Assembly (NCBI GenBank): GCA_043765195.1
Contig: JAYUJN010000001.1
Coordinates: forward strand, 6,171-70,170
Direction: 5' to 3'
Length of the DNA: 64,000 bases
Origin: Bacteroidota bacterium
Lineage (GTDB): Bacteria > Bacteroidota > Bacteroidia > UBA7662 > JAYUJN01
The position numbers and the translations under genes were made by a program. Below, piece by piece: positions 2,978 to 58,388 of this stretch (its first letter is position 1; the number at the start of each line of letters is the position of its first letter). The notes beneath the pieces were generated by a model. It worked only from the letters and a program-made list of their open reading frames with translations, ran no database searches and was not told where the DNA came from.

Positions 2978-3469
2978 ATGACCACAAAAATACTTTTTTT
3001 GGATAGAGACGGCGTAATAAACCACGACCCCGAGGATTATACCAAAAACCTAAGCGAACTAACGCTGCTGCCAAATGCCACAAAAGCCGTGGCTTATGCC
3101 ACAAGTTTGGGTTACACCATTGTGGTAATTACGAACCAAGCGGGCGTGGGCAAGGGGCTTTATACCCACCAAAATGTAGTGGAAATACACCAGTACATCG
3201 CCCAAAAAGCCGAAGAAGCGGGCGGAGAAATAGCGGCTTTTTACTATTGCCCACACAACCCAAATGCCACCAAGTGCCTCTGCCGAAAACCCGACCACAT
3301 TATGGTACAAAAAGCACTGGCAAGATACAATGCCTCGCCGAGCCAGAGCTTGTTTATAGGCGACAAACCCCGAGACGTAGCCTGCGCCGAAGCCGCAGGC
3401 GTAAAAGGAATACTAATGCCGTGTAACGGCGACTTACTATACATTTTAACACAAAACCTACCCAAATGA
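2978..3469 (+). CDS. HAD-IIIA phosphatase, D,D-heptose 1,7-bisphosphate phosphatase-like
   Basis: Motifs LDRDGVIN, ITNQAGVGKG, CLCRKP and GDKPRD are typical of the GmhB / histidinol-phosphatase-like HAD subfamily. Confidence 0.7.
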   Translation: MTTKILFLDRDGVINHDPEDYTKNLSELTLLPNATKAVAYATSLGYTIVVITNQAGVGKGLYTHQNVVEIHQYIAQKAEEAGGEIAAFYYCPHNPNATKCLCRKPDHIMVQKALARYNASPSQSLFIGDKPRDVACAEAAGVKGILMPCNGDLLYILTQNLPK

Positions 3470-4551
3470 ACGCACCAGACAACGAATTTTTAGCCGAAGA
3501 AGAAGACCAATACCAAGACGAAAACCAGGACGAGAACCAAGACGAATTGTTTGAACACCACAGGTTTGTGGCAGATGCCAAACAAGGGCTTTTTCGGGTA
3601 GATAAATTTGTGGCAGACCGCCTGCCCAACACCTCACGAAATAGGGTGCAAAATGCCATAGATTCTGGTACGGTGTTCGTAAACGACAAGCCCACCAAGG
3701 CAAACTACAAGGTAAAACCGCACGATGTGGTAACCATTGTGATGGGGCAGCCGCCCAGAGACAAAACCATATTGCCCCAAGACATTGCGCTTAATATTGT
3801 GTATGAAGACGACGATATTTTGATTATAAACAAGCCTTCGGGTATGGTGGTACACCCAGGGTTTGGCAATTATGAAAACACGCTGATAAATGCGCTGGTG
3901 TTTCATTTTAAAAATTTGCCCACAAAAAACGGCTTAGACCGCCCAGGGCTGGTACACCGCATAGACAAAGAAACCTCGGGGCTGCTGGTGGTAGCCAAAA
4001 CCGAAATAGCCATGAACCACCTCGCACGCCAGTTTTTCGACCACAGCATACAGCGGCGCTATCAGGCTTTGGTTTGGGGCGATGTGGTGCAAGACGAAGG
4101 CACGATTACGGGCAACTTAGACCGCAGCCCCAAAGATAGGCGCATCATGGCGGTGTTTGCCGATGGCGGTCAGGGCAAGCACGCCGTAACGCATTACAAG
4201 GTTTTGCAGCGGTTTGGCTACGTGAGTCTGCTGGAATACGCCTTGGAAACGGGGCGCACCCACCAAATAAGGGTGCATTCGCAGTACATAAAACACCCTA
4301 TTTTTAACGATAGCTCGTATGGCGGCAACAAAATTTTGAGGGGAACGGTGTTTACAAAATACAAGCAGTTTGTCGAAAACTGTTTTGCAAAAATGCCCCG
4401 TGTGGCACTACACGCCAAAACGCTTGGTTTTATACACCCAACTTCTGGCAAAGATATGTTTTTTGAGGCTGCGCTGCCACCCGATTTTGTAGCCGTGATA
4501 AGTAGCTGGCAAAACTACGTAAACTACAAGCCATTGCCCGAAGAAGATTGA
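3466..4551 (+). CDS. rluD: RluA-family 23S rRNA pseudouridine synthase (RluD-like)
   Basis: S4-like segment RVDKFVADRL and catalytic motif HRIDKETSGLLVVAKT. ATGA start/stop overlap with the upstream gene. The N-terminus is acidic (QDENQDENQDE). Confidence 0.85.
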   Translation: MNAPDNEFLAEEEDQYQDENQDENQDELFEHHRFVADAKQGLFRVDKFVADRLPNTSRNRVQNAIDSGTVFVNDKPTKANYKVKPHDVVTIVMGQPPRDKTILPQDIALNIVYEDDDILIINKPSGMVVHPGFGNYENTLINALVFHFKNLPTKNGLDRPGLVHRIDKETSGLLVVAKTEIAMNHLARQFFDHSIQRRYQALVWGDVVQDEGTITGNLDRSPKDRRIMAVFADGGQGKHAVTHYKVLQRFGYVSLLEYALETGRTHQIRVHSQYIKHPIFNDSSYGGNKILRGTVFTKYKQFVENCFAKMPRVALHAKTLGFIHPTSGKDMFFEAALPPDFVAVISSWQNYVNYKPLPEED

Positions 4552-48214: not shown

Positions 48215-48251
48215 CATAAAAATATGCTTACTACCAAACGAAACTTTTGCG

Positions 48252-48259
48252 TAATTTTG
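48252..48259 (+). promoter_or_regulatory. -7 promoter box for icmF
   Basis: TAATTTTG lies inside the track's longer ORF (48224 start). ATG 48290 lies 31 nt downstream. Confidence 0.45.
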
Positions 48260-48289
48260 CACACATATCACCCTTTACTTTTTATTCTG

Positions 48290-51200
48290 ATGCAAAATGC
48301 CACGCCTTACCAGCCAAAAAACCATATAAGAATTGTTACGGCTGCCGCCCTCTTCGACGGGCACGATGCCGCCATAAACATCATGCGGCGCATCATGCAA
48401 AGCTCGGGCGCAGAGGTAATACACCTTGGGCATAACCGCTCGGTGCAAGAAATAGTAGCCTGCGCCGTACAAGAAGATGCGCAAGCGATAGCCATTACTT
48501 CGTACCAAGGCGGACATACCGAAACCCTAAAATATATGTACGACCTGCTAAAAGAACAGGGCGCAGCGCATATAAAAATATTTGGCGGCGGCGGCGGTAC
48601 TATATTGCCCAGCGAAATAGCCGAGCTGCATAGCTATGGCATTACCCGCATATACAGCCCCGACGATGGGCGCAGCATGGGCTTACAAGGCATGATAAAC
48701 GACTTGCTGCAACAAGCGGATTTTGCACTGGATTATACTGGCTTGCACACCAATACCAACGACAAAAAAAATGTGGCTCGGCTTATATCGTGTGCCGAAA
48801 ACGAACCCGAGCAGTTTTTGGAACTGAAAAAAAACCTACAACCCAATGCCACAAAAACACCGATATTGGGCATTACAGGCACGGGCGGTGCGGGCAAAAG
48901 TAGCTTGGTAGATGAGCTTATTCGGCGGTTTTTGATGGATTTTGACGATAAAACGCTCGCCATTATTTCGGTGGACCCGAGCAAGCGCAAAACGGGCGGC
49001 GCACTGCTCGGCGACAGAATACGCATGAACGCCATAAGCCCCGAGCTGGCTGGCACACGCATTTATATGCGCTCGCTCGCCACCCGCCAAAGCAACCTTG
49101 CCCTAAGTAAATACGTGCAAGATGCCTTAGATGTGGTAGCCGCAGCGGGTTTCGACCTTATTATACTCGAAACTTCGGGCATTGGGCAAAGCGACACCGA
49201 AATTATAGAGCATAGCCACGCCAGCCTTTATGTAATGACCCCAGAATACGGGGCGGCTACGCAGCTCGAAAAAATAGATATGCTCGACTTTGCCGACGTA
49301 ATAGCCCTAAATAAGTTTGACAAACGGGGCGGGCTGGACGCATTGCGTGATGTGAAAAAACAATACCAACGCAACCACAACCGCTGGGAGGAGGATTTAG
49401 ATGTGATGCCTGTGTTTGGTACGATAGCTTCGCAGTTTAATGACCCAGGCGTGAATAATTTGTACCACGCCATACTCAAAAAAATAACGGAGAAAACGGG
49501 TGCCGATTTTAGTACGTCTCATTTTTTGGGCAGCCAAGCCCAAAGCGAAAAAATTTATATTATTCCGCCGCAGCGCACACGCTATTTAGCCGAAATTACC
49601 GAAAAAATACAGGGCTACAACCAACAAACGGTAACACAAAGCCAGATAGCCGACCAACTTTTTGCGCTGACCGAAACCATAAAAATACTGGGCGCAGACC
49701 ACACCAGCGACGATGTGGCAACGAAGCTGCAAAAAAAGTTTGAGACCATACAAAAAGACCTAAATCCGCACCACTGGGACATACTGCAAAACTGGCAAAA
49801 AACGCTGAATAACTATAAGGGCGATGAGTTTGTGTACCAAGTGCGGGGCAAGGACATTAGGGTGCAAACCCGCAGCCGGAGCCTGTCGAACCTAAGCATA
49901 CCTCGGGTGGCTGTGCCTCGCTATACGAGCTGGGGCGACCAGCTTCGGTGGGCGTTGCAAGAGAATTTTGCGGGGGAGTTTCCATATACAGCGGGCGTTT
50001 TTCCGTTTAAACGGGAGGGCGAAGACCCCGCACGAATGTTTGCGGGCGAGGGCTGCCCCGAGCGCACCAACAAACGGTTTCACTACCTAAGCCTGGGTAT
50101 GCCCGCCAAGCGGTTGAGCACGGCTTTTGATAGCGTAACGCTTTATGGCGAAAACCCCGAGCTGCGACCCGATATTTATGGCAAAATAGGCAATGCGGGC
50201 GTGAGCATTTGCTGCCTGGACGATGCCAAAAAACTGTACTCGGGCTTTGATCTCTGCGACCCAAAAACCTCGGTGAGCATGACCATAAACGGACCTGCAC
50301 CGATGCTGCTGGCTTTTTTTATGAATGCCGCCATAGACCAACAATGCGAAAAATACATTGTGGCGCATGACCTGACGCACCTCGTAAACCAAAAACTGAC
50401 CGAAAAATACGACCAAAAAAACCTGCCACGCCCCCAATACAACAGCCAGCCGCTGCCCGAGGGAAACAACGGGTTGGGCTTGCTGCTGCTGGGCATTACG
50501 GGCGATGAAATACTGGAACCCGCCATTTACCAAAAAATAAAAAGTGATGCCATGAGCCAAGTGCGTGGCACGGTGCAAGCCGATATTTTGAAGGAAGACC
50601 AAGCCCAAAATACGTGTATTTTTAGCACCGAATTTGCGCTTAGGCTCATGGGCGACGTGCAAGCGTTTTTTATTGAGAACCAAATAAGGAACTTTTATTC
50701 GGTGAGTATATCGGGTTACCACATAGCCGAAGCGGGCGCAAACCCGATTACGCAGCTTGCTTTTACGCTGTCCAACGGGTTTACTTATGTGGAGTATTAT
50801 TTATCCAGGGGCTTGAATATCAATGACTTTGCGCCTAATTTGTCGTTCTTTTTTAGCAACGGAACCGACCCCGAGTACGCCGTGATAGGTAGGGTGGCGA
50901 GGCGTATATGGGCGAAGGCAATGAAGCTGAAATACGGCGCAAACGAGCGCAGCCAAATGCTGAAATACCACATACAAACGTCGGGGCGCAGCCTGCACGC
51001 CCAAGAAATAGATTTTAACGACATACGAACCACGCTGCAAGCGCTGTATGCCATATACGACAACTGCAACAGCCTGCACACCAATGCCTACGACGAAGCC
51101 ATAACCACGCCCACCGAGGAAAGCGTGCGCCGTGCCATGGCTATACAACTGATTATAAATAAGGAACTTGGCTTGGCAAAAAACGAAAACCCGATGCAGG

Positions 51201-51664
51201 GAGCATTTATAAACGACGAGCTAACGGACTTGGTGGAGGAAGCCGTGATTTTGGAGTTTAACCGCATATCGGAGCGGGGCGGCGTGCTGGGCGCAATGGA
51301 AAATATGTACCAGCGCAACAAAATACAAGAGGAAAGTATGCACTACGAAATGAAAAAACACACGGGCGAGCTGCCGATTATAGGCGTAAATACTTTTTTG
51401 AACAGCAAAGGCTCGCCCACCATACTGCCGCAAGAGGTAATAAGAGCCACCCAAGAAGAAAAGCAATGGCAGCTAAATACCGTAGCCAACCTGCACCAAA
51501 CCCACGCCCAAAAACTACAAGCGGGCTTAGAAAAATTGCAGGAGGCAGCCCTAAAAAACCAAAATATATTTGACTATTTAATGGAGCTAAGTCAGTTTTG
51601 TAGCCTCGGGCAAATGACCAACGCCCTGTACGCCGTAGGCGGGCAATACAGGCGGAATATGTAG
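48290..51664 (+). CDS. icmF: fused isobutyryl-CoA mutase (B12-binding domain + MeaB-like GTPase + mutase barrel), IcmF
   Basis: B12-binding DxHxxG ([10 protein letters not shown]), P-loop [17 protein letters not shown], and a long methylmalonyl-CoA-mutase-family C-terminal domain. Start moved to [16 protein letters not shown]. Confidence 0.9.
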
Positions 51665-51989
51665 GGAGTGGGGGGAAGGCATAATGTCAGTTTGGTAAAA
51701 TAGTTTTTTATTAAAAACAATATTTGTTGTTTCTGTTTTTTTTGTATATTTACAAAGTTGGATTATTTCATTATATTGCTCTTGTCAAGCCCCAAAACGT
51801 TAGCGGTCATTTTAAAATAGAACCGCACACCAAAAGTGGAAGAAACTACAAAATTGAGAAAAACAGAACAAATTCATAAATGACGATGAAAAATTTAAGA
51901 CCACTAAAGTCATTGAAAAACAATACATTATGAAATGTTTCCTTTATTTATGAGGGAAACATAAATACTTTTGAATAAAAATTGAAAAT

Positions 51990-53000
51990 ATGAAAGATTT
52001 GACCGTTTCGGCTATTGACCGACAAAACATAATTAATAATAAAAAAGCAGTACAGAATATACAAACTTATTTGGGTGTTACTGGTATGCTTTTTCAAGGT
52101 GAGTATAAATTTACACGACAACAAATTATAGAATTTTACGCTATAGACAATTCAACCATAGATAGATATTTATCTCAAAACCAAGAAGAATTAAAACATA
52201 ATGGTTATGTAAATCTAAAAGGGAAAGCACTTAAAGAATTTAAAGATGAATTTGGTTGGATGTTGCAGGAGGGAGCTAAGGCTCCGCAACTTGGCATTTT
52301 CAATTTTCGTTCATTTTTAAATTTGGGAATGCTGCTAACAGAGAGTGAAAAAGCTAAAGCATTAAGGAGTAAAATATTGGATATTGTAATTGACACTCTT
52401 AACCAAAAGTTAGGTGGCTCAACAAAGTATATTAACCAGCGTGAAGAAGATTTTTTAATTGCAATGGCTCGTGAGCCCGTTTATAGAAAAGAATTTACTG
52501 AAGCATTAAATAAATATTTGGAAATGGGGAACTATAAATATGCTGTTTATACCGATGCTATTTATAAAGCCATTTTTCTTGAAAAATCAGCTGAATATAA
52601 AGTGATTTTGAAGTTAGAAGAAAAAGAAAATATGAGGGACACAATGTATTCTGAGGTTCTTCGGTTGATTGCTTCGTTTGAAGTAGGAATAGCAGATGCA
52701 ATGAAGTTAAAATCTGAAAAACTGAATAGGAAACTGCAACCACCAGAATTAGATGAATTGATAGACGAATTTTCAAAACAACGATTTTGGACACCACAAA
52801 TTGAAGATGCAAGAAGCAAAATGGCAAGCCGAGATTATGGTTTAAGGAATATTATTCATGAAAGGTTAAAACCCTATATCAATTCACTAAATGCAGTGGA
52901 TTATGACAGATTTTTAGGAGATAAAAGTAAAGACCTTATACAAAGAGTAACAGAAAATCCTGACCTATTAGATGTTTTCAAACGATTAAAAGACCGATAA
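51990..53000 (+). CDS. hypothetical DNA-binding-like protein, 336 aa (possibly distant RhuM-like), upstream partner of Doc
   Basis: N-terminal HTH-like stretch KFTRQQIIEFYAIDNSTIDRYLSQNQEEL followed by a long helical region. Its stop TAA is separated from the doc ATG by a single nucleotide. The RhuM resemblance is weak and from memory only. Confidence 0.5.
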   Translation: MKDLTVSAIDRQNIINNKKAVQNIQTYLGVTGMLFQGEYKFTRQQIIEFYAIDNSTIDRYLSQNQEELKHNGYVNLKGKALKEFKDEFGWMLQEGAKAPQLGIFNFRSFLNLGMLLTESEKAKALRSKILDIVIDTLNQKLGGSTKYINQREEDFLIAMAREPVYRKEFTEALNKYLEMGNYKYAVYTDAIYKAIFLEKSAEYKVILKLEEKENMRDTMYSEVLRLIASFEVGIADAMKLKSEKLNRKLQPPELDELIDEFSKQRFWTPQIEDARSKMASRDYGLRNIIHERLKPYINSLNAVDYDRFLGDKSKDLIQRVTENPDLLDVFKRLKDR

Positions 53001-53001
53001 C

Positions 53002-53448
53002 ATGGCATTTGCATATTTTGATACTGCTCGTGCTATAACGATGCACGACGAAATAATAAATCAATCAGGTGGGTCGTTAGGCATTTTGAATATAGGCTTA
53101 TTAGAGAGTGTTATAGAGCATATTCAAAATGATTTTTATTATCCAAAATTTGAACACAAACTTACGCACCTATTCTTTTCAATTAATAAAAATCACAGCT
53201 TTCAAGATGGAAATAAAAGAGCTTCAATTGCATTGTCTGCTTATTTTTTGGAAATCAATAATTGTTCATTTAAAACAGAACAATTTATAGCTGAAATGGA
53301 AAACGTAGCAGTGGATGTAGCAGACAACAGAATTGATAAAGATTTGCTTTTTGAAATAATCCATTCAATAATTTACGAAGACGATTACACCGAAGAATTA
53401 AAATTGAAAATAATTTATGCCAAGGGATTTGATAACGAAGACCAATAA
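53002..53448 (+). CDS. doc: Fic/Doc-family toxin (death-on-curing type)
   Basis: Fic motif HSFQDGNKRAS (53194-53226) and N-terminal HDEIINQSGG, typical of Doc. 148 aa. Confidence 0.8.
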   Translation: MAFAYFDTARAITMHDEIINQSGGSLGILNIGLLESVIEHIQNDFYYPKFEHKLTHLFFSINKNHSFQDGNKRASIALSAYFLEINNCSFKTEQFIAEMENVAVDVADNRIDKDLLFEIIHSIIYEDDYTEELKLKIIYAKGFDNEDQ

Positions 53449-53670
53449 TCTTACAATTCAACAGCCCCCCCAACTCCAACATTTCCCCTCCACCCACACT
53501 CTGCGCTCCGCCCTGTGTTTCTAACAAAAGTTTTTTGGTGCGGTTGAAAATTACTTGCGTTTTTATTGTTTTTTTGCTTAATTTTGGGCTTGAAAATATG
53601 CTATAATTTGCGCCTTTTTGCAGTTTATAGCCCAAACCCACCACCTACGACCAAACCTAACGCCTACGCT

Positions 53671-55590
53671 ATGAGCCTATTAGTAAAAACATTTAGCCTA
53701 TTTACGGACTTTGATGCCAATTTGTTCAAATCGGGCAAGCACTTTAAATTATACGAAAAACTCGGCTCGCACATCGTAACCCACGACGGCGAAACGGGCG
53801 TTTACTTCGCCGTGTGGGCACCCAACGCCAAAAATGTAAGCGTTATCGGCAACTTTAACCACTGGCAGCCCTACCAGCACAACCTCTGCGCCCGCTGGGA
53901 CGGCACGGGCATCTGGGAGGGTTTTGTGCCACGCCTCGGCAAGGGCGAAGTGTATAAATACCACATTCACAGCCAACACAGCGATTTGCGCTTAGAAAAA
54001 GCCGATCCCTTTGCCTTTATGTGGGAAGTGCCGCCCAGCACCGCATCTATCGTTTGGGATTTGGATTACAAATGGAAAGACAAAAAATGGCTGGCTGCCC
54101 GCCTCAAAAAAAATGCGCTCGACCAACCATTTTCCGTGTATGAAATGCACATAGCCTCGTGGCGGCGCAAGCTCGACGAGGGCAATCGGTCGTTTACCTA
54201 CTTAGAGCTTGCCAAAGAACTGGTGGCGTACCTAAAAGCCATGCACTTTACGCACGTGGAGTTTTTGCCCGTAATGGAGCACCCCTACGGTCCGAGCTGG
54301 GGCTACCAGAGCTTGGGCTACTTCGCACCCTCGAGCCGTTTTGGCACGCCCCAAGAGTTTATGCAGCTCGTAGATGCGCTGCATGAGGCGGGCATCGGCG
54401 TTATTTTAGACTGGGTGCCCTCGCATTTCCCAGGCGATGCCCACGGCATACACAAGTTCGACGGCACCAGCCTCTACGAACACGAAGACCCCCGCCAAGG
54501 CTACCACCCCGACTGGAACTCCTGGATATTTAACTACGGGCGCAACGAAGTGCGCAGTTTTTTAATAAGCAGCGCAGGCTTTTGGTGCGATTTGTACCAT
54601 GCCGACGGGCTACGGGTAGATGCCGTAGCCTCCATGCTCTACCTCGATTATTCACGCAAAGAGGGCGAATGGATACCCAACCAATACGGCGGCAGAGAAA
54701 ACTTAGAAGCCATTTCGCTGCTCAAAGAACTAAACGAATACCTCTACACCAGTTTTGAAGGCATACAAACCATCGCCGAAGAAAGCACGGCGTTCCCCAT
54801 GATTTCTCGCCCCGTGTATTTGGGCGGGTTGGGTTTTGGCATGAAATGGATGATGGGCTGGATGAACGACACCCTCCAATACTTTAAACGAGACCCATAT
54901 TACCGCCAATACCACCAAGGCGAAATCACATTTAGCCTCGTGTACGCATTCACCGAAAATTTTATGCTGCCCTTTTCCCACGACGAAGTGGTGCACGGCA
55001 AAGGCTCGCTACTAAGCCGTATGCCTGGCGATGCGTGGCAAAAGTACGCCAATCTCAGGCTGCTGTACGCCTATATGTTTTCGCACCCAGGCACCAAGCT
55101 CATATTTATGGGCTGCGAGTTTGGGCAATTTACCGAGTGGAGCCACGAGGGGCAGCTACCCTGGGAACTCACCCACCAACCCAACAACCAAGGCATTCAA
55201 AAGCTATTTGCGGAGCTAAACAGGCTATATACAACCGAAAAAGCGTTTTTTGAGCTGCAATTTTCGCCCGAGGGCTTCGAGTGGATAGACCACAGCGACA
55301 CCCAAAACAGCATAATTAGCTACGTGCGAAAAAGCAAAAACGGCAAAGACCAAATAATGGTAATATGCAACCTAACGACCATACCACGAAACAATTATAG
55401 ATTGGGCGCAACCAAAGCAGGCACGTGGCAGCAAATACTAAACACCGACGACCTTGCCTACGGTGGCAGCCAATACCAAATAGCGCCCCAAGCCAAAACC
55501 GAAGCCATAGAAAGCCACGGCAAAGCGCAATCGGTGCTGCTAAACCTACCGCCGCTCGGTGTAATTATGCTCAAACACAGCAAAGGATAA
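53671..55590 (+). CDS. glgB: 1,4-alpha-glucan branching enzyme
   Basis: GH13 motifs HADGLRVDAVASMLY, IAEESTAFP and LPFSHDEVVHGK. Start moved to ATG 53671 (MSLLVKTFSLFTDFD); the 35 upstream codons of the track ORF look non-coding. Confidence 0.9.
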   Translation: MSLLVKTFSLFTDFDANLFKSGKHFKLYEKLGSHIVTHDGETGVYFAVWAPNAKNVSVIGNFNHWQPYQHNLCARWDGTGIWEGFVPRLGKGEVYKYHIHSQHSDLRLEKADPFAFMWEVPPSTASIVWDLDYKWKDKKWLAARLKKNALDQPFSVYEMHIASWRRKLDEGNRSFTYLELAKELVAYLKAMHFTHVEFLPVMEHPYGPSWGYQSLGYFAPSSRFGTPQEFMQLVDALHEAGIGVILDWVPSHFPGDAHGIHKFDGTSLYEHEDPRQGYHPDWNSWIFNYGRNEVRSFLISSAGFWCDLYHADGLRVDAVASMLYLDYSRKEGEWIPNQYGGRENLEAISLLKELNEYLYTSFEGIQTIAEESTAFPMISRPVYLGGLGFGMKWMMGWMNDTLQYFKRDPYYRQYHQGEITFSLVYAFTENFMLPFSHDEVVHGKGSLLSRMPGDAWQKYANLRLLYAYMFSHPGTKLIFMGCEFGQFTEWSHEGQLPWELTHQPNNQGIQKLFAELNRLYTTEKAFFELQFSPEGFEWIDHSDTQNSIISYVRKSKNGKDQIMVICNLTTIPRNNYRLGATKAGTWQQILNTDDLAYGGSQYQIAPQAKTEAIESHGKAQSVLLNLPPLGVIMLKHSKG

Positions 55591-55622
55591 AAAGCTGGTT
55601 TACACCAAGCCCAAAAACCAAT
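55492..55622 (+). repeat. copy A of a direct repeat (functional 3' end of glgB plus ~30 nt downstream)
   Basis: 55495-55590 aligns without gaps to 58159-58254 (88 of 96 nt identical). Weaker, gapped similarity continues about 30 nt past the stop. Confidence 0.8.
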
Positions 55623-55697
55623 TTTGCCAAAAAAATATTCTTGCTTTGTTTCATTTGCCCCAAACACCTACAACACAGGCATTTGGGGTAAATTCTC

Positions 55698-57878
55698 TTA
55701 ATTCAGTTCCTCAAAATGCACCTGCCCAGTAGCAATGTCGTGGTAGGCGCTTATAATGCCAATCTCTTTGTGGTCTATTCTGTGCTTCAAATACGGGCTT
55801 TGCTCCAATATTTCTTTCACCGAATTGTTGGCATTTTGTTTGGTCGTTTTTTCCATGAGTTCATCTTCGCTGGCGTTTTCAGGTTTTGGGTAGCAACCAC
55901 ATTCGGCGGCTACCTTCTGAATTTTTGAGGTAACGGTATGAATGTTGTCGTCCATTACATTGGCTAACGAAAGCGCCACAGCACCGCAGCTCGAATGCCC
56001 TTTTACCACAATTAGTTTTGCGCCCAGTTTTTTTACCGCAATTTCCAAGCTCCCAATTATTTCGGGGTTTATAATGTTGCCCGCAATGCGAACGGTCAAT
56101 AAATCGCCCAAATTTGCATCAAACAATATTTCGGGCGAGGTTCTGCTATCGATGCAGCTAACCAAAACCGCCATCGGGTTTTGCCCCATAGAAGTAGCTT
56201 TTACCTGATGCAAATAGTGTTTGTCGGTGCCGTTTCCATCTACAAAGCGTTTGTTGCCTGCTTTTAGCAACTCCAAAGCGTCCAGTGGTTTTAGTTTTTG
56301 TTGGGTTTCTTTGTCCAACACATTTATAAACTGTACGTTGTCTTTTAAATTATATTGCCCTTTTATGCCAAGCAAATTCAACTGAATGTTTCTTTCGGGC
56401 GCAATGGTGGTTTTAAAATCGTCTATTATTTCACGCACATCATTGTCTATAAAATTGGCGTAGGTAGCATCTATCACCACTTTTGAGCCTTTGGGTATGC
56501 TCCAAAGCGTTTCTTTTATGGTTGCTTTGTTCAAAAATGAGGTTTGGTTGGGCAGCTCCAATTTTATAACCTGACCGATGTTCAGTTTGCTTTCGTTTCT
56601 TAAAAATGGGTTTTTAAAATTGCTCCTTAGTATGTAAAACACCGCAGTAGCCAAACCTATGATTACGCCGATTAATAAATCGGTAAAAACGATTGCCAAA
56701 ATAGTGATGACAAAAGGCACAAACTGCGGTCTGCCTTTTTGGTACATTTCTTTAAACAAAGATATTTTGGTTAGTTTATAACCCGTCATAAGCAGTATGG
56801 CAGCCAGCGATGCCAAAGGAATTTGGTTTAATAATGCACTTAAAAACAACACAAAAACCAACAAAAATGCGCCGTGCAATATCGCCGAAAGTTTGGTTTG
56901 GTTGCCCGCCTGCACATTTACAGAGCTACGAACAATTACCGAAGTTACGGGCAAACCGCCCAGCAATCCCGCCATCATGTTGCCTATGCCTTGCGCCACC
57001 AATTCGGTGTTTGGGGGCGAGTTTCTTTTGTGCGGGTCCAGTTTATCTACGGCTTCGATGTTTAGCAGTGTTTCCAGCGATGCCACAATGGCGAGCGTAA
57101 GCGCCACGAGCCAAACTTGGTAGTTCGATAGGTTGGTTAGGTTGGGTAAATGAAAATAGCCCGATAGGTTGTTGGTATCAATGGCTGGAATGTTTACCAA
57201 GTGGGATTGTTGAACGGCTAAAAAAGGCACAAAATTCGTAAAAATATAATTTAAAAACACCCCAAATATAACCACAAACAAAGATGCTGGCAACAGTTTT
57301 ACATTTTTTAGTGGCGTTTTGTCCCAAAAAAGGATTACCAAAATGGATAGTAAACTTATGGCAATTGCGCCTGGGGTAATGTGGTTTAGGGCATTTAATA
57401 TTTCCGAAAAACTGTTTTCGCCATCAACCTGAAAAAAGGCACTTTCGCCCTCGGGGTCTTTGTCGTAACCCAAGGCGTGCGGTATTTGCTTGATAATCAA
57501 CAAGATGCCAATAGATGCCAAAAGCCCTTTAATTACATTTGAGGGTACAAAGTTGGCTACCAAACCTGCTTTGGCTATGCCCAGCAGTAACTGAATAATG
57601 CCTGCCAAAAATACCGCAGTTAGAAACACCTCGAACGAACCGAGCTTTGTGATTGAGGCGAGTACCACGGCGGCAAGCCCAGCGGCGGGTCCGCTCACGC
57701 TTGTTTGCGATTGGCTTATAAACCCCACCACAATGCCACCAATGACCCCAGAAATGATGCCCGAAAGTAGCGGTGCGCCCGATGCCAAGGCGATGCCCAA
57801 GCACAGCGGAATTGCTACCAGAAATACAACGATACTGGCTGGTAAGTCGCTTTTGATGTTTCCGAATAATTTTTTCAT
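55698..57878 (-). CDS. SulP-family anion transporter fused to STAS-like region and C-terminal beta-carbonic anhydrase
   Basis: SulP membrane domain, STAS-like segment (IKLELPNQTSFLNKATIKE ... VVIDATYANFID). The C-terminal ~200 aa carry beta-CA motifs VSCIDSRTSPE and KGHSSCGAV. Confidence 0.85.
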   Translation of the reverse strand: MKKLFGNIKSDLPASIVVFLVAIPLCLGIALASGAPLLSGIISGVIGGIVVGFISQSQTSVSGPAAGLAAVVLASITKLGSFEVFLTAVFLAGIIQLLLGIAKAGLVANFVPSNVIKGLLASIGILLIIKQIPHALGYDKDPEGESAFFQVDGENSFSEILNALNHITPGAIAISLLSILVILFWDKTPLKNVKLLPASLFVVIFGVFLNYIFTNFVPFLAVQQSHLVNIPAIDTNNLSGYFHLPNLTNLSNYQVWLVALTLAIVASLETLLNIEAVDKLDPHKRNSPPNTELVAQGIGNMMAGLLGGLPVTSVIVRSSVNVQAGNQTKLSAILHGAFLLVFVLFLSALLNQIPLASLAAILLMTGYKLTKISLFKEMYQKGRPQFVPFVITILAIVFTDLLIGVIIGLATAVFYILRSNFKNPFLRNESKLNIGQVIKLELPNQTSFLNKATIKETLWSIPKGSKVVIDATYANFIDNDVREIIDDFKTTIAPERNIQLNLLGIKGQYNLKDNVQFINVLDKETQQKLKPLDALELLKAGNKRFVDGNGTDKHYLHQVKATSMGQNPMAVLVSCIDSRTSPEILFDANLGDLLTVRIAGNIINPEIIGSLEIAVKKLGAKLIVVKGHSSCGAVALSLANVMDDNIHTVTSKIQKVAAECGCYPKPENASEDELMEKTTKQNANNSVKEILEQSPYLKHRIDHKEIGIISAYHDIATGQVHFEELN

Positions 57879-57925
57879 TTATAAATTTTAGTAAAATATG
57901 GTGTTTTGCCTTTATTTTTGGCATA

Positions 57926-57933
57926 CAAATATA
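57926..57933 (-). promoter_or_regulatory. -7 promoter box for the SulP-CA gene
   Basis: The reverse strand reads TATATTTG. The ATG lies 48 nt downstream. Confidence 0.4.
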
Positions 57934-58155
57934 AGCTAAAATGGTGGAAAATCAAGCCGTGTTCAAAGTTTTATCTGTATTTTGGCTAAAAAGAAATTGA
58001 ATATAAAGAGTTTTAACAATTTGTAAATTAAGTGGTTAATTGTTTTTGGGTAATTGTGTTGGGTGTTTAAAATATACAAAAGCCGTGATGCAGCTAAGTT
58101 GGTTTTGGGTGTGAAACACATTGCCACAAAAGCTCAAAACCCAACATAAAAGCCA

Positions 58156-58254
58156 GCTAAAACCGAAGCCATAGAAAGCCATGGCAAAGCACAATCGGTG
58201 CTGCTAAACCTACCGCCGCCGGGTGTAACTATGCTCAAACATAGCAAGGGTTAA
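58156..58254 (+). pseudogene. orphan 3' fragment of a glgB gene (copy B of the direct repeat)
   Basis: Translates in frame as (A)KTEAIESHGKAQSVLLNLPPPGVTMLKHSKG*, versus KTEAIESHGKAQSVLLNLPPLGVIMLKHSKG* for the real glgB end. An in-frame TAA at 58147-58149 truncates it upstream, and no start codon is present. Confidence 0.75.
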
Positions 58255-58388
58255 AAGCTGTTTTTATACAAAACAACCGAAAAAACCAACAAAAGCTAAA
58301 AATGCGATTGAGTTTAGAAACTTTGTTAAATTGTTAAAATGTCTATGTGTTCTGCGCCCTTGCACCCAAAACCATAAAATATCGGCAT

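What the first reader, a model, noticed from the sequence alone, without database searches (positions are those of the whole stretch)
51665..53477. AT-rich cassette: a 336-aa HTH-like protein tightly coupled to a Doc/Fic toxin, inserted right after the icmF stop
Between two GC-normal housekeeping genes (icmF, glgB) lies a ~1.8-kb stretch that is far more AT-rich by eye. Individual 60-nt lines run near one quarter G+C, against about one half or more in the flanks. It carries two ORFs separated by a single nucleotide (TAA C ATG).

The second ORF is a clear Doc-type Fic protein (HSFQDGNKRAS). The first is 336 aa, several times larger than a Phd-type antitoxin, with an N-terminal HTH-like segment and a long helical body I cannot place confidently. 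It may be distantly RhuM-like, and RhuM/Fic associations are known from annotation.

This could be a non-canonical toxin-antitoxin or Fic-regulator module, or a defence-type pair.
Basis: partly seen in the sequence, partly recalled or inferred. Interest (0 to 1): 0.6.

Follow-up and report, generated by a model that had tools for sequence, protein, structure and literature searches.

The report
Doc toxin with large DNA-binding partner
A 1.8-kb AT-rich insert between two housekeeping genes carries a Doc-type translation-blocking toxin gene coupled to a large antirepressor-like DNA-binding protein; the pair is widespread and already catalogued, but nobody has tested it.

Summary
Window 51665-53477 is 31.0% G+C against a genome mean of 45.1% (z = -3.6). 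It holds two genes joined by TAA-C-ATG: A (336 aa, 51990-53000) and B (148 aa, 53002-53448).

- **B is a true Doc.** It matches Pfam Fic and TIGR01550, has the motif HSFQDGNKR, and a close homologue's model superposes on P1 Doc (TM 0.75).
- **A is not RhuM.** PF13310 gives no hit and hhalign gives 17% probability. A has a KilA-N/ORF6N-type winged-helix head and a helical body with no Pfam family.
- **The pair matches PADLOC PDC-M59A/B full length.** The source paper made only a three-gene form a candidate and rejected the two-gene form seen here.
- **The pair travels as a unit.** In 79 of 80 related loci from many phyla, Doc follows A within 18 nt. The two co-diverge (r = 0.84), and in about 7 loci Doc has decayed beside an intact A.
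- **Context varies.** About a quarter of loci sit inside type I or III restriction-modification operons. This copy is solitary, between two arms of a host hairpin.

Most likely this is a type II toxin-antitoxin-like, possibly abortive-infection, module with A as a large modular antitoxin and autorepressor. No function has been tested.

The parts
51662..51681 (+). Left border: the icmF stop codon followed by a G-rich arm (TAGGGAGTGGGGGGAAGGCA). It is complementary to the right border.
   Evidence: Duplex energy with 53461-53482 is -24.7 kcal/mol, against -6.8 +/- 3.7 for 3000 random segment pairs 1.8 kb apart; 1 of 3000 reaches it. Listed as inverted repeat I5.
51682..51849 (.). AT-rich stretch inside the insert that is not shared with any related locus. 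Origin unknown; possibly donor flank. The 51-aa TTG ORF at 51724-51879 is probably spurious.
   Evidence: DNA homology to the nearest loci starts only at about 51850. G+C is 0.25-0.37.
51850..51989 (+). Conserved 140-nt leader of the mobile unit (promoter and operator region).
   Evidence: About 86% identical to L092-L097 from 51850 onward. Leader alignment A2.
51935..51962 (+). Palindrome ATGTTTCC-N12-GGAAACAT, 28-55 nt upstream of the A start codon. Candidate operator for autorepression, or alternatively an RNA hairpin.
   Evidence: Found at a fixed -55 position in the window and in L004-L012 and L015. Both arms change together (L007 GTTTCTC/GAGAAAC; L008 and L012 GTTTACC/GGTAAAC). Also flagged by the hairpin scan.
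51966..51973 (+). TACTTTTG, a match to the Bacteroidota -7 promoter consensus TAnnTTTG (consensus recalled from memory). It ends 16 nt before the ATG.
   Evidence: Read directly from the sequence. The same position reads TACTT(A/T)TC in close relatives. This is inference, not a tested promoter.
51990..53000 (+). Gene A, 336 aa: the large DNA-binding partner of Doc (PADLOC PDC-M59A; NCBI name 'DNA-binding protein').
   Evidence: PDC-M59A at 5e-112 over residues 1-334 of 338. No Pfam family. More than 6600 homologues and 1179 50%-identity cluster representatives. AF2 pLDDT 77.
52077..52265 (+). A residues about 30-92: beta-hairpin plus helix-turn-helix plus wing (KilA-N/ORF6N-type DNA-binding head).
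   Evidence: Secondary structure. Weak ORF6N hits in 8 of 42 members and HTH_29 in 6 of 42. Foldseek hits to viral KilA-N and antirepressor proteins at probability 1.0. DdrC hits.
52413..52448 (+). A residues 142-153: loop GGSTKYINQREE, the most conserved motif in the protein, modelled with the lowest confidence.
   Evidence: G143, K146, I148, N149, Q150 and R151 are invariant; G142, T145, Y147, E152 and E153 are at least 90% conserved. pLDDT is 41-49. GGxT is present in about 70 of 73 pairs. EF-Tu Thr382 lies in GGRT(382)VG.
52827..52997 (+). A residues 280-336: conserved, low-confidence C-terminal helices ending in DVFKRLKDR. Proposed Doc-neutralising tail.
   Evidence: F308, G310, R332 and L333 are invariant. 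pLDDT is 45-65 both with and without Doc. Residues 271-330 hold 30 of the top 100 A-Doc covarying pairs against about 17 expected. No sequence similarity to Phd.
53002..53448 (+). Gene B, 148 aa: Doc-type Fic-fold kinase (PADLOC PDC-M59B).
   Evidence: Pfam Fic 1.2e-11. TIGR01550 DOC_P1 2.6e-12, above its cut-off. phrog_577 Doc-like toxin 2e-17. P1 Doc structures at 2e-4. Modelled fold versus 3K33/3DD7: TM 0.75, rmsd 3.2 A.
53194..53220 (+). Doc catalytic motif H65-S-F-Q-D-G-N-K72-R73. The Lys is the residue that distinguishes Doc kinases from AMPylating Fic proteins.
   Evidence: Read directly from the sequence. H.F.DGNKR is present in 72 of 73 family members. The role of K73 in P1 Doc is described in PMC7180214.
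53461..53482 (+). Right border: C-rich arm (ACAGCCCCCCCAACTCCAACAT), complementary to the left border.
   Evidence: Homology with related units ends at 53445-53459.

Best explanation
The AT-rich stretch is a horizontally acquired, self-contained two-gene module. It appears to have landed in the loop of a G/C-rich hairpin between icmF and the glgB promoter. It has no mobility gene of its own and is fixed in this population.

Shown:
- Gene B encodes a Doc-type Fic-fold protein with the kinase-type motif HxFxDGNKR.
- Gene A is always immediately upstream, tightly coupled to B, and co-diverges with it.
- A has a KilA-N/ORF6N-type winged-helix DNA-binding head, like phage antirepressors, and a conserved helical body.

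Inferred:
- The pair works as a type II toxin-antitoxin-like module.
- Doc phosphorylates EF-Tu at the Thr382-equivalent residue and arrests translation.
- A binds and neutralises Doc, most probably through its highly conserved but intrinsically flexible C-terminal helices. This would be analogous to the 'Phd-C' element of the PanA antitoxin of C. doosanense Doc.
- A's DNA-binding head represses the operon at the palindrome 51935-51962, which overlaps the promoter.
- The large globular body serves as a sensor or trigger surface. Loss or inactivation of A, for example during phage infection, would free Doc and cause abortive infection.
- In many other genomes the unit is embedded in type I or III restriction-modification operons. 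Here it is a solitary copy.
For: Doc identity:
-. The motif is conserved in 72 of 73 members.

Linkage of A and Doc:
- A Doc gene lies 3-18 nt downstream of A in 79 of 80 loci from Bacteroidota, Gracilibacteria, Campylobacterota, Spirochaetota, Acidobacteriota and the PVC group. The single exception is cut off by the contig end.
- A-A and Doc-Doc distances correlate at r = 0.84 over 63 loci.

Asymmetric decay, as expected for toxin and antitoxin:
- Doc is frameshifted, deleted or interrupted in L007, L021, L025, L035, L038, L045 and L079, while A is full length in each.

A as a DNA binder:
-.

Candidate operator:
- A clade-specific palindrome at a fixed position, with changes on both arms, lies next to a -7-like box.

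C-terminal tail as the Doc-binding part:
- It is nearly invariant but modelled with low confidence.
- It is about twofold enriched among A-Doc covarying pairs.
- There is an experimental precedent for a large antitoxin neutralising Doc through two C-terminal helices while its globular domain is dispensable (PMC10440598).

Horizontal acquisition:
- G+C z = -3.6.
- The unit is more AT-rich than its flanks in 61 of 64 loci.
- None of 40 relatives has a full-length homologue; two give only weak partial matches.
- The same unit sits in different neighbourhoods.
- The borders are complementary.

Defence association:
- PADLOC models match.
- Related loci are embedded in restriction-modification operons.
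- The pair occurs in viral contigs and beside the integrase of streptococcal satellite prophages.
Against: - No experiment exists for this family. Toxicity, [14 protein letters not shown], DNA binding and defence are all inferred.
- A's tail shows no sequence similarity to Phd or to any antitoxin family at E up to 10.
- In the read-through A-Doc single-chain model the tail stayed at pLDDT 45-60. No coordinates or PAE were returned, so no interface could be verified.
- The covariation signal rests on an effective sample of 29 sequences and is confounded by phylogeny.
- Payne et al. marked the two-gene cassette 'Reject' and promoted only the three-gene form to PDC-M59. The window lacks a third gene.
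- A Doc gene with a small Phd-type partner, embedded in the pneumococcal tvr type I RM locus, showed no addiction phenotype and acted as a transcriptional repressor (PMC6265443).
- Some of the disrupted Doc genes come from metagenome-assembled genomes and could be assembly errors.
Confidence: 0.6

Rival explanations
1. The pair is a dedicated restriction-modification 'guard', comparable to PrrC. A monitors the state of a type I or III restriction complex, or the DNA ends and phage anti-restriction activity linked to it. It releases Doc when restriction is subverted. The solitary copy in this window would then act in trans with the host's type I system 78 kb away, or be a functionless orphan.
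For: - About a quarter of the 80 loci have the pair on the same strand between hsdM/hsdS and hsdR, or between type III mod and res.
- The family was first picked up because it is embedded in such systems.
- The host genome has a type I system whose HsdR and HsdM are 56% and 62% identical to those flanking A-Doc elsewhere.
- A's best match among solved structures is DdrC, a protein that binds damaged DNA.
Against: - Most loci, including this one, are not inside a restriction-modification operon.
- The DdrC match has TM 0.2-0.4 and rmsd 13-18 A, so it may reflect only a generic winged-helix plus helical-bundle layout.
- No contact with restriction subunits has been shown.
Confidence: 0.2
2. The pair is mainly a transcriptional regulator and not a growth-arresting toxin system. 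Doc acts as a co-repressor with, or alongside, the DNA-binding protein A, as reported for TvrT in the pneumococcal tvr locus.
For: - In S. pneumoniae, deleting the antitoxin of an RM-embedded Doc pair did not impair growth, and Doc repressed the neighbouring recombinase gene (PMC6265443).
- A is clearly a DNA-binding protein, and a conserved palindrome lies upstream.
Against: - The full kinase-type catalytic motif is conserved in 72 of 73 members, which argues for enzymatic activity.
- The tvr partner is a small Phd-type protein and is not related to A.
- Recurrent decay of Doc next to an intact A fits a costly toxin better than a co-repressor.
- The solitary copy here has no obvious gene to regulate other than itself.
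Confidence: 0.1
3. A is a RhuM-family protein, or the two ORFs are chance open frames in AT-rich DNA.
For: - A and RhuM proteins have a similar length (about 335 aa), an N-terminal strand-strand-HTH element at a similar position, and a similar genomic habitat.
Against: - PF13310 does not match A.
- hhalign gives 17% probability over 29 columns.
- Both ORFs have thousands of conserved full-length homologues and confident folds, so they are real genes.
Confidence: 0.02

Closest known systems
PADLOC phage-defence candidate PDC-M59 (Payne et al., bioRxiv 10.1101/2024.01.29.577857; PADLOC-DB v2)
   Same: - A matches PDC-M59A full length (5e-112) and B matches PDC-M59B (2e-29).
- Same gene order.
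- The family is often embedded in type I or III restriction-modification operons.
   Different: - PDC-M59 was defined from a three-family cassette with 46 instances. The two-gene cassette, with 414 instances, was marked 'Reject'.
- The window has only two genes and is not embedded in a defence system.
- PDC-M59 itself is an untested prediction.
Phd-Doc of phage P1 (type II toxin-antitoxin; Doc phosphorylates EF-Tu Thr382)
   Same: - Doc fold (TM 0.75 to 3K33/3DD7) and the kinase-type motif HxFxD(A/G)NKR.
- The partner gene is immediately upstream and tightly coupled.
- A palindrome lies upstream, as at the phd-doc operator.
   Different: - The partner is 336 aa, against the 70-80 aa usual for Phd/YefM antitoxins (size as given in another scan note; not measured here).
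- The partner has a KilA-N/ORF6N-type DNA-binding head and shows no detectable similarity to Phd/YefM.
- Doc has a roughly 25-aa acidic C-terminal extension.
- [14 protein letters not shown] and toxicity are not shown.
Doc(D6):PanA with Phd-C domain of Corynebacterium doosanense (Ernits et al. 2023, PMC10440598)
   Same: - It establishes the concept of a large modular antitoxin in which two C-terminal helices neutralise Doc and the globular domain is accessory, possibly sensory.
- A likewise ends in conserved helices that are predicted to be flexible.
   Different: - A has no Panacea domain.
- No Phd-C-like sequence signal was found.
- The interface is not modelled or tested.
RhuM family (PF13310), often found in or near type I RM loci
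   Same: - Similar size.
- An N-terminal beta-hairpin plus HTH.
- Similar genomic habitat.
   Different: - No homology is detectable beyond the HTH.
- A should not be called RhuM.
TvrAT (Phd-Doc homologues) in the pneumococcal tvr type I RM locus (PMC6265443)
   Same: A Doc-family gene pair embedded between hsdM/hsdS and hsdR.
   Different: - The tvr partner is a small Phd-type protein.
- Experiments there found no addiction phenotype, only a regulatory effect.
- The window's pair is not embedded in an RM locus.

Membership tests
Doc subfamily of Fic/Fido proteins | Match to Pfam PF02661 and TIGR01550 (DOC_P1) above the curated cut-offs | tested here: met
   PF02661 scores 45.7 bits against a cut-off of 24. 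TIGR01550 scores 47.0 bits against a cut-off of 38.65.
Doc subfamily of Fic/Fido proteins | Kinase-type motif HxFxD(A/G)NKR, with Lys where AMPylating Fic proteins have Gly | tested here: met
   H65-S-F-Q-D-G-N-K72-R73. The motif is present in 72 of 73 family members. The role of the Lys is described in PMC7180214.
Doc subfamily of Fic/Fido proteins | Doc fold | tested here: met
   The Doc part of the model superposes on 3DD7/3K33 with TM 0.73-0.76 and rmsd 3.2-3.3 A over 127-129 columns. The model is of the L004 homologue, which is 82% identical to B.
Doc subfamily of Fic/Fido proteins | Phosphorylates EF-Tu and arrests translation | not testable with these tools
   This needs a toxicity assay and a kinase assay. 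The host tuf gene is missing from the 82%-complete genome assembly.
Type II toxin-antitoxin module (Phd-Doc type) | Antitoxin gene immediately upstream, co-transcribed and tightly coupled to the toxin gene | tested here: met
   The junction is TAA-C-ATG. The gap is 3-18 nt in 79 of 80 loci.
Type II toxin-antitoxin module (Phd-Doc type) | Partner belongs to the Phd/YefM (or another known) antitoxin family | tested here: not met
   No Pfam, NCBIfam or PDB sequence match for A or for its last 66 residues.
Type II toxin-antitoxin module (Phd-Doc type) | Partner binds and neutralises the toxin | tested here: inconclusive
   Co-divergence r = 0.84. Toxin-first decay. Covariation is enriched in A residues 271-330. 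However, the single-chain model left the tail at low confidence and no interface data were returned.
Type II toxin-antitoxin module (Phd-Doc type) | Autoregulation at a palindromic operator | tested here: inconclusive
   A conserved palindrome with changes on both arms lies at -55 in the window's clade only. Binding has not been tested, and an RNA hairpin is an alternative.
PADLOC PDC-M59 | Proteins matching the PDC-M59A and PDC-M59B models, adjacent and on the same strand | tested here: met
   5.1e-112 and 2.2e-29.
PADLOC PDC-M59 | Third component (cassette FAM_01085>>FAM_00079>>FAM_00939) | tested here: not met
   No gene lies between the Doc stop (53448) and glgB. Payne et al. rejected the two-gene cassette. 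That A is FAM_01085 and B is FAM_00079 is my inference from the order of the models.
PADLOC PDC-M59 | Embedded in a BREX, DISARM or type I RM system | tested here: not met
   The window's copy lies between icmF and glgB. The host's type I RM system is 78 kb away. About a quarter of related loci are embedded.
RhuM (PF13310) | Match to the family model, or profile-profile homology | tested here: not met
   No hit at E <= 0.1. No hit in the window's own genome. hhalign gives 17% probability over 29 columns.
KilA-N / ORF6N DNA-binding domain proteins (phage antirepressor-like) | N-terminal KilA-N/ORF6N fold | tested here: inconclusive
   The window protein itself has no Pfam hit. 8 of 42 homologues hit ORF6N weakly, best E 1.3e-4. 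Foldseek against viral models gives KilA-N and antirepressor proteins at E 3e-4 to 2e-3 and probability 1.0, but with TM of about 0.3-0.5.
DdrC (Deinococcus DNA-damage response protein C) | Winged helix plus four-helix bundle fold with global superposition | tested here: inconclusive
   It is the top hit among solved structures in two searches, with probability 0.99-1.0. But TM is 0.19-0.43, rmsd 13-18 A and identity 11-15%.

The most novel reading that the evidence does not exclude
A's most conserved element, the flexible loop G142-G143-x-T145-K-Y-I-N-Q-R-E-E, may mimic the EF-Tu loop that Doc phosphorylates (G-G-R-T382-V-G). A would then hold Doc in check as a pseudosubstrate, or be phosphorylated itself as a switch, instead of using a Phd-like helix. 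This would be a new way of neutralising a Fic-fold toxin, coupled to a KilA-N DNA-binding sensor.
Probability: 0.1. Interest if true: 0.7.

Novelty: new member of a known kind. Interest (0 to 1): 0.38.

Why it matters
- The A-Doc pair is one of the most widespread uncharacterised partners of a classic toxin. It has more than 6600 close homologues and 1179 representatives of 50%-identity clusters, and it spans several phyla and even an alternative genetic code.
- It sits in restriction-modification operons, prophages and satellites, yet nobody has tested it.
- Learning how a 336-aa antirepressor-like protein controls Doc would clarify how large 'sensor' antitoxins link translation arrest to phage infection. 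It would also explain why such modules nest inside restriction systems.
- For this particular window the finding is ordinary: one more solitary, horizontally acquired copy of a catalogued family. It has a clear insertion footprint but no new architecture.

Tried and rejected
1. **RhuM homology.** PF13310 gave no match to A or anywhere in the window's own genome. hhalign of the 42-sequence A alignment against 20 RhuM proteins gave 17% probability. Rejected.
2. **Phd-like signature in A's tail.** phmmer of the last 66 residues against PDB, and Pfam scans of six tails at E up to 10, gave nothing relevant. Not confirmed at sequence level.
3. **A-Doc complex model.** No multimer tool was available. 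I used the in-frame locus L004, read the A stop codon as Gly, and added unpaired A and Doc rows. Overall pTM rose from 0.45 to 0.62. The tail and the GGxT loop stayed at low confidence, and no coordinates or PAE were returned. Inconclusive.
4. **Empty site.** In 19 order-level relatives glgB does not follow icmF. A metagenome scan with the icmF C-terminal peptide gave 120 loci, but none above about 74% nucleotide identity and none with glgB. All contigs with the identical A protein share the same context.
6. **Third PDC-M59 component.** Seven recurrent neighbours were scanned against PADLOC. They are restriction-modification subunits or have no hit.
7. **Known RNAs.** No Rfam family and no tRNA lies in or next to the cassette.
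8. **Host EF-Tu target loop.** tuf is absent from the assembly. The motif was checked on E. coli EF-Tu structures instead.
9. **Literature.** No paper mentions PDC-M59 by name.
Full report
**Observation**

The window has a fused B12-binding/MeaB/methylmalonyl-CoA-mutase gene (icmF type) at 48224-51664, and a glycogen branching enzyme gene ending at 55590. Between them lie two same-strand ORFs:
- A at 51990-53000, 336 aa.
- B at 53002-53448, 148 aa.

They are joined by GAC CGA TAA C ATG. G+C in 300-nt windows falls to 0.25-0.34 across 51700-53500, against 0.48-0.58 in the flanking genes.

Measured against the whole 2.45-Mb assembly, the 1813-nt stretch is 31.0% G+C. Equal-sized genome windows average 45.1%, giving z = -3.6. 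Only 0.47% of 7843 equal-sized windows are as low.

**Gene B**

B is a Doc, on four lines of evidence:
- It passes the curated cut-offs of Pfam Fic/DOC and of TIGR01550 'death-on-curing family toxin'.
- It matches phrog_577 'Doc-like toxin'.
- It aligns to P1 Doc crystal structures.
- A model of the 82%-identical L004 homologue superposes on 3DD7/3K33 with TM 0.75 and rmsd 3.2 A.

Its motif H65-S-F-Q-D-G-N-K72-R73 has the lysine that makes Doc a kinase and not an AMPylase (PMC7180214). H.F.DGNKR is present in 72 of 73 distinct family members.

**Gene A**

A has no Pfam, NCBIfam or PDB sequence match. It belongs to a very large family:
- More than 6600 hits in the 90%-clustered collection. The top 120 clusters are 79-100% identical, and NCBI names them 'DNA-binding protein'.
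- 1179 representatives of 50%-identity clusters at E <= 0.001.

An AlphaFold model built on 42 homologues (pLDDT 77) shows these parts:
- Two N-terminal helices.
- A beta-hairpin plus HTH plus wing, at residues about 30-92.
- A site where other members carry a variable acidic insert.
- A long helical body.
- The loop 142-153, GGSTKYINQREE. It is the most conserved motif in the protein but has pLDDT 41.
- C-terminal helices 302-335 ending in the nearly invariant DVFKRLKDR, with pLDDT about 50-65.

Fold and domain evidence:
- Weak ORF6N hits in 8 of 42 members and winged-HTH hits in 6 of 42.
- Foldseek hits to viral KilA-N, antirepressor and regulatory proteins.
- Recurrent but loose hits to Deinococcus DdrC.

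A is therefore a KilA-N/ORF6N-type DNA-binding protein with an antirepressor-like build.

- PF13310 finds RhuM genes in 43 of 151 genomes of the class, but nothing in this genome.
- A profile-profile comparison of the A family with 20 RhuM proteins aligns only 29 columns over the HTH, at 17% probability.

A is not a RhuM.

**The pair as a unit**

- In 80 loci from named genomes, a Doc homologue starts 3-18 nt after A in 79. The loci come mostly from Bacteroidota, but also from Gracilibacteria (which use genetic code 25), Campylobacterota, Spirochaetota, Acidobacteriota, the PVC group and others. The one exception has only 187 bp of contig left after A.
- Pairwise distances of A and of Doc correlate at r = 0.84.
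- In seven loci Doc is frameshifted, internally deleted or interrupted by about 1 kb while A is full length. This asymmetry is expected if Doc is costly and A protective. Assembly errors cannot be excluded for some of these.
- DNA homology between the window and its nearest relatives (86% identity) runs from 51850 to 53445-53459. That is a 140-nt leader plus the two genes, and nothing else.
- The unit has no mobility gene and no shared terminal repeats.
- It is more AT-rich than its flanks in 61 of 64 loci.

**Where it sits**

- None of the 40 closest genomes has a full-length homologue; two give only weak partial matches.
- Identical or near-identical A proteins occur in unrelated neighbourhoods. 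One set lies beside IS66, WYL, SLFN-like helicase, methylase, ImmA/IrrE and other toxin-antitoxin genes. Another is a solitary insert between secretin and SprB genes.
- Clustering all neighbouring ORFs of the 80 loci gives HsdS upstream in 13 loci, HsdM in 9, HsdR downstream in 10, and type III Mod/Res around the pair in 4-6. All are on the same strand, and Pfam and PADLOC confirm the identifications. About a quarter of loci are therefore embedded in restriction-modification operons.
- The pair also occurs in 10 viral contigs. It lies next to the integrase of Streptococcus satellite prophages, where A is annotated 'CiaB protein'.

In this window the pair is solitary. The host has a type I system 78 kb further along the same contig, and A-Doc is not in it.

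The two borders of the AT-rich DNA, 51662-51681 and 53461-53482, are complementary. Their duplex energy is -24.7 kcal/mol, against -6.8 +/- 3.7 for random segment pairs; 1 of 3000 controls reaches it. Joined in silico, the two flanks fold into a hairpin of -32.7 kcal/mol. Related units do not carry these arms. The simplest reading is therefore that a host hairpin after icmF was split by the insertion.

All long contigs carrying the identical A protein show the same context, so the insert is fixed in this population.

**What is already known**

Both proteins match the PADLOC models PDC-M59A (5e-112, full length) and PDC-M59B (2e-29). These come from Payne et al. (bioRxiv 10.1101/2024.01.29.577857). 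[quoted passage not shown] Their supplementary table 8 lists two cassettes:
- The two-family cassette FAM_01085>>FAM_00079, 414 instances, marked 'Reject'.
- The three-family cassette with FAM_00939 added, 46 instances, marked 'Assign as candidate PDC-M59'.

The window has the two-gene form. The mapping of these family numbers to A and B is my inference from the order of the models. No paper mentions PDC-M59 by name.

Earlier notes of this scan describe the same pair in E. coli islands, a P2 prophage hotspot and RM operons, with similar conclusions. One of them claimed a Phd-like signature at A's end. I could not confirm that at sequence level.

**How it most likely works**

Shown:
- A Doc-type enzyme with an intact kinase motif.
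- An obligately linked, co-diverging upstream DNA-binding protein.
- A conserved leader.

Inferred:
- Doc phosphorylates EF-Tu and arrests translation.
- A neutralises Doc by direct binding.
- A, or the A-Doc complex, represses the operon.

For the operator, the window's clade has the palindrome ATGTTTCC-N12-GGAAACAT at 51935-51962. It always lies 55 nt before the ATG, and both arms change together in L007, L008, L011 and L012. A TAnnTTTG-like box follows at 51966-51973. More distant clades have other palindromes or none. An RNA hairpin is an alternative reading.

For [14 protein letters not shown], I favour the C-terminal helices, for these reasons:
- They are nearly invariant yet modelled as flexible.
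- Residues 271-330 hold 30 of the top 100 A-Doc covarying pairs, against about 17 expected. This rests on 73 pairs with an effective sample of 29, so it is weak evidence.
- Ernits et al. showed experimentally that a large antitoxin, PanA, neutralises a Doc through two C-terminal helices, while its globular domain is dispensable and possibly sensory (PMC10440598).

My single-chain proxy for the complex raised pTM from 0.45 to 0.62. It left the tail at pLDDT 45-60 and returned no coordinates, so the interface is unverified.

**Alternatives**

- **A restriction 'guard' role.** This fits the embedded loci but not the majority of solitary ones.
- **A purely regulatory role.** It has a precedent in the pneumococcal tvr locus. 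There, an RM-embedded Doc with a small Phd-type partner showed no addiction phenotype and repressed a recombinase gene (PMC6265443). The strictly conserved catalytic motif here, and the recurrent decay of Doc, argue against it.
- **The most novel reading not excluded.** A's invariant loop GG-x-T145 resembles the Doc target loop of EF-Tu, GGRT382VG. A could therefore be a pseudosubstrate or a phospho-switch. The resemblance is only four residues. A few members have Pro or Ala at the Thr position, and the model did not place the loop confidently. I give this about 10%.

**Verdict**

The cassette is one more solitary, horizontally acquired copy of a very widespread A-Doc module that is catalogued but never tested. 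It adds a clear insertion footprint and a candidate operator, but no new architecture.

- Novelty: new member of a known kind.
- Interest: moderate to low for this locus. The family as a whole deserves an experiment.

Noticed in passing
window 51662-51681 and 53461-53482: The G-rich and C-rich borders of the insert are strongly complementary (-24.7 kcal/mol; 1 of 3000 random controls reaches this). Joined in silico they form a hairpin of -32.7 kcal/mol. This suggests the cassette landed in the loop of a host hairpin after icmF. Related units do not carry these arms.
   Followed up: partly
G000:C1:137294-143879 (outside the window, same contig): The host's type I restriction-modification operon is hsdM, a 259-aa ORF of unknown function, hsdS, a 173-aa ORF, then hsdR. 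From its N-terminal sequence alone the 173-aa ORF (starting MAYNPAIHHRRSIRLKGYDYS...) looks to me like a REP-associated tyrosine transposase. So this operon has other embedded genes, but not A-Doc.
   Followed up: no
L018:6001-7425, L034, L020, L022: The Gracilibacteria copies of A and Doc contain several in-frame TGA codons, consistent with genetic code 25, so the module also lives in recoded genomes. L022, labelled Campylobacterota, and L020 each have one in-frame TGA in A. That could be mis-binning or a pseudogene.
   Followed up: partly
L049:2155-4020: In a Saprospiraceae genome assembly the Doc gene continues as an open frame of about 621 aa, so Doc is fused to a long C-terminal extension. 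Among the representatives, P0126 (639 aa) carries A at residues 300-638 behind an unknown N-terminal half.
   Followed up: no
L079:7083-8539: In Flavobacterium gawalongense, Doc is split by an insertion of about 1 kb between residues 88 and 92, while A is intact.
   Followed up: no
L268 (MK448629.1) 3001-4457: In Streptococcus satellite prophages (Javan742, 758, 313, 319) the A homologue (43% identity) is annotated 'CiaB protein'. It is followed by a 150-aa 'hypothetical protein' whose start overlaps A's stop (presumably Doc; not checked), right beside the integrase. The CiaB name looks like an annotation error.
   Followed up: partly
window 53566-53672: The longest glgB frame starts at a TTG at 53566. 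The plausible start is the ATG at 53672 (MSLLVKTF...). That leaves a 223-nt intergenic region with the glgB promoter downstream of the insert. A gene caller used a third start, 160 nt after the Doc stop.
   Followed up: no
whole genome G000: No tuf (EF-Tu) gene is present in the 82.6%-complete assembly. The only GHVDHGKT-containing ORF looks like IF-2, judged from its length and motif only. The predicted target of Doc could therefore not be inspected in the host.
   Followed up: yes
window 53448-58292: glgB is flanked by two apparent insertions: the A-Doc cassette upstream and the SulP-carbonic-anhydrase gene downstream. An earlier follow-up judged the second one strain-specific and bracketed by a repeat of the glgB 3' end. 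This neighbourhood may be an insertion hotspot.
   Followed up: no
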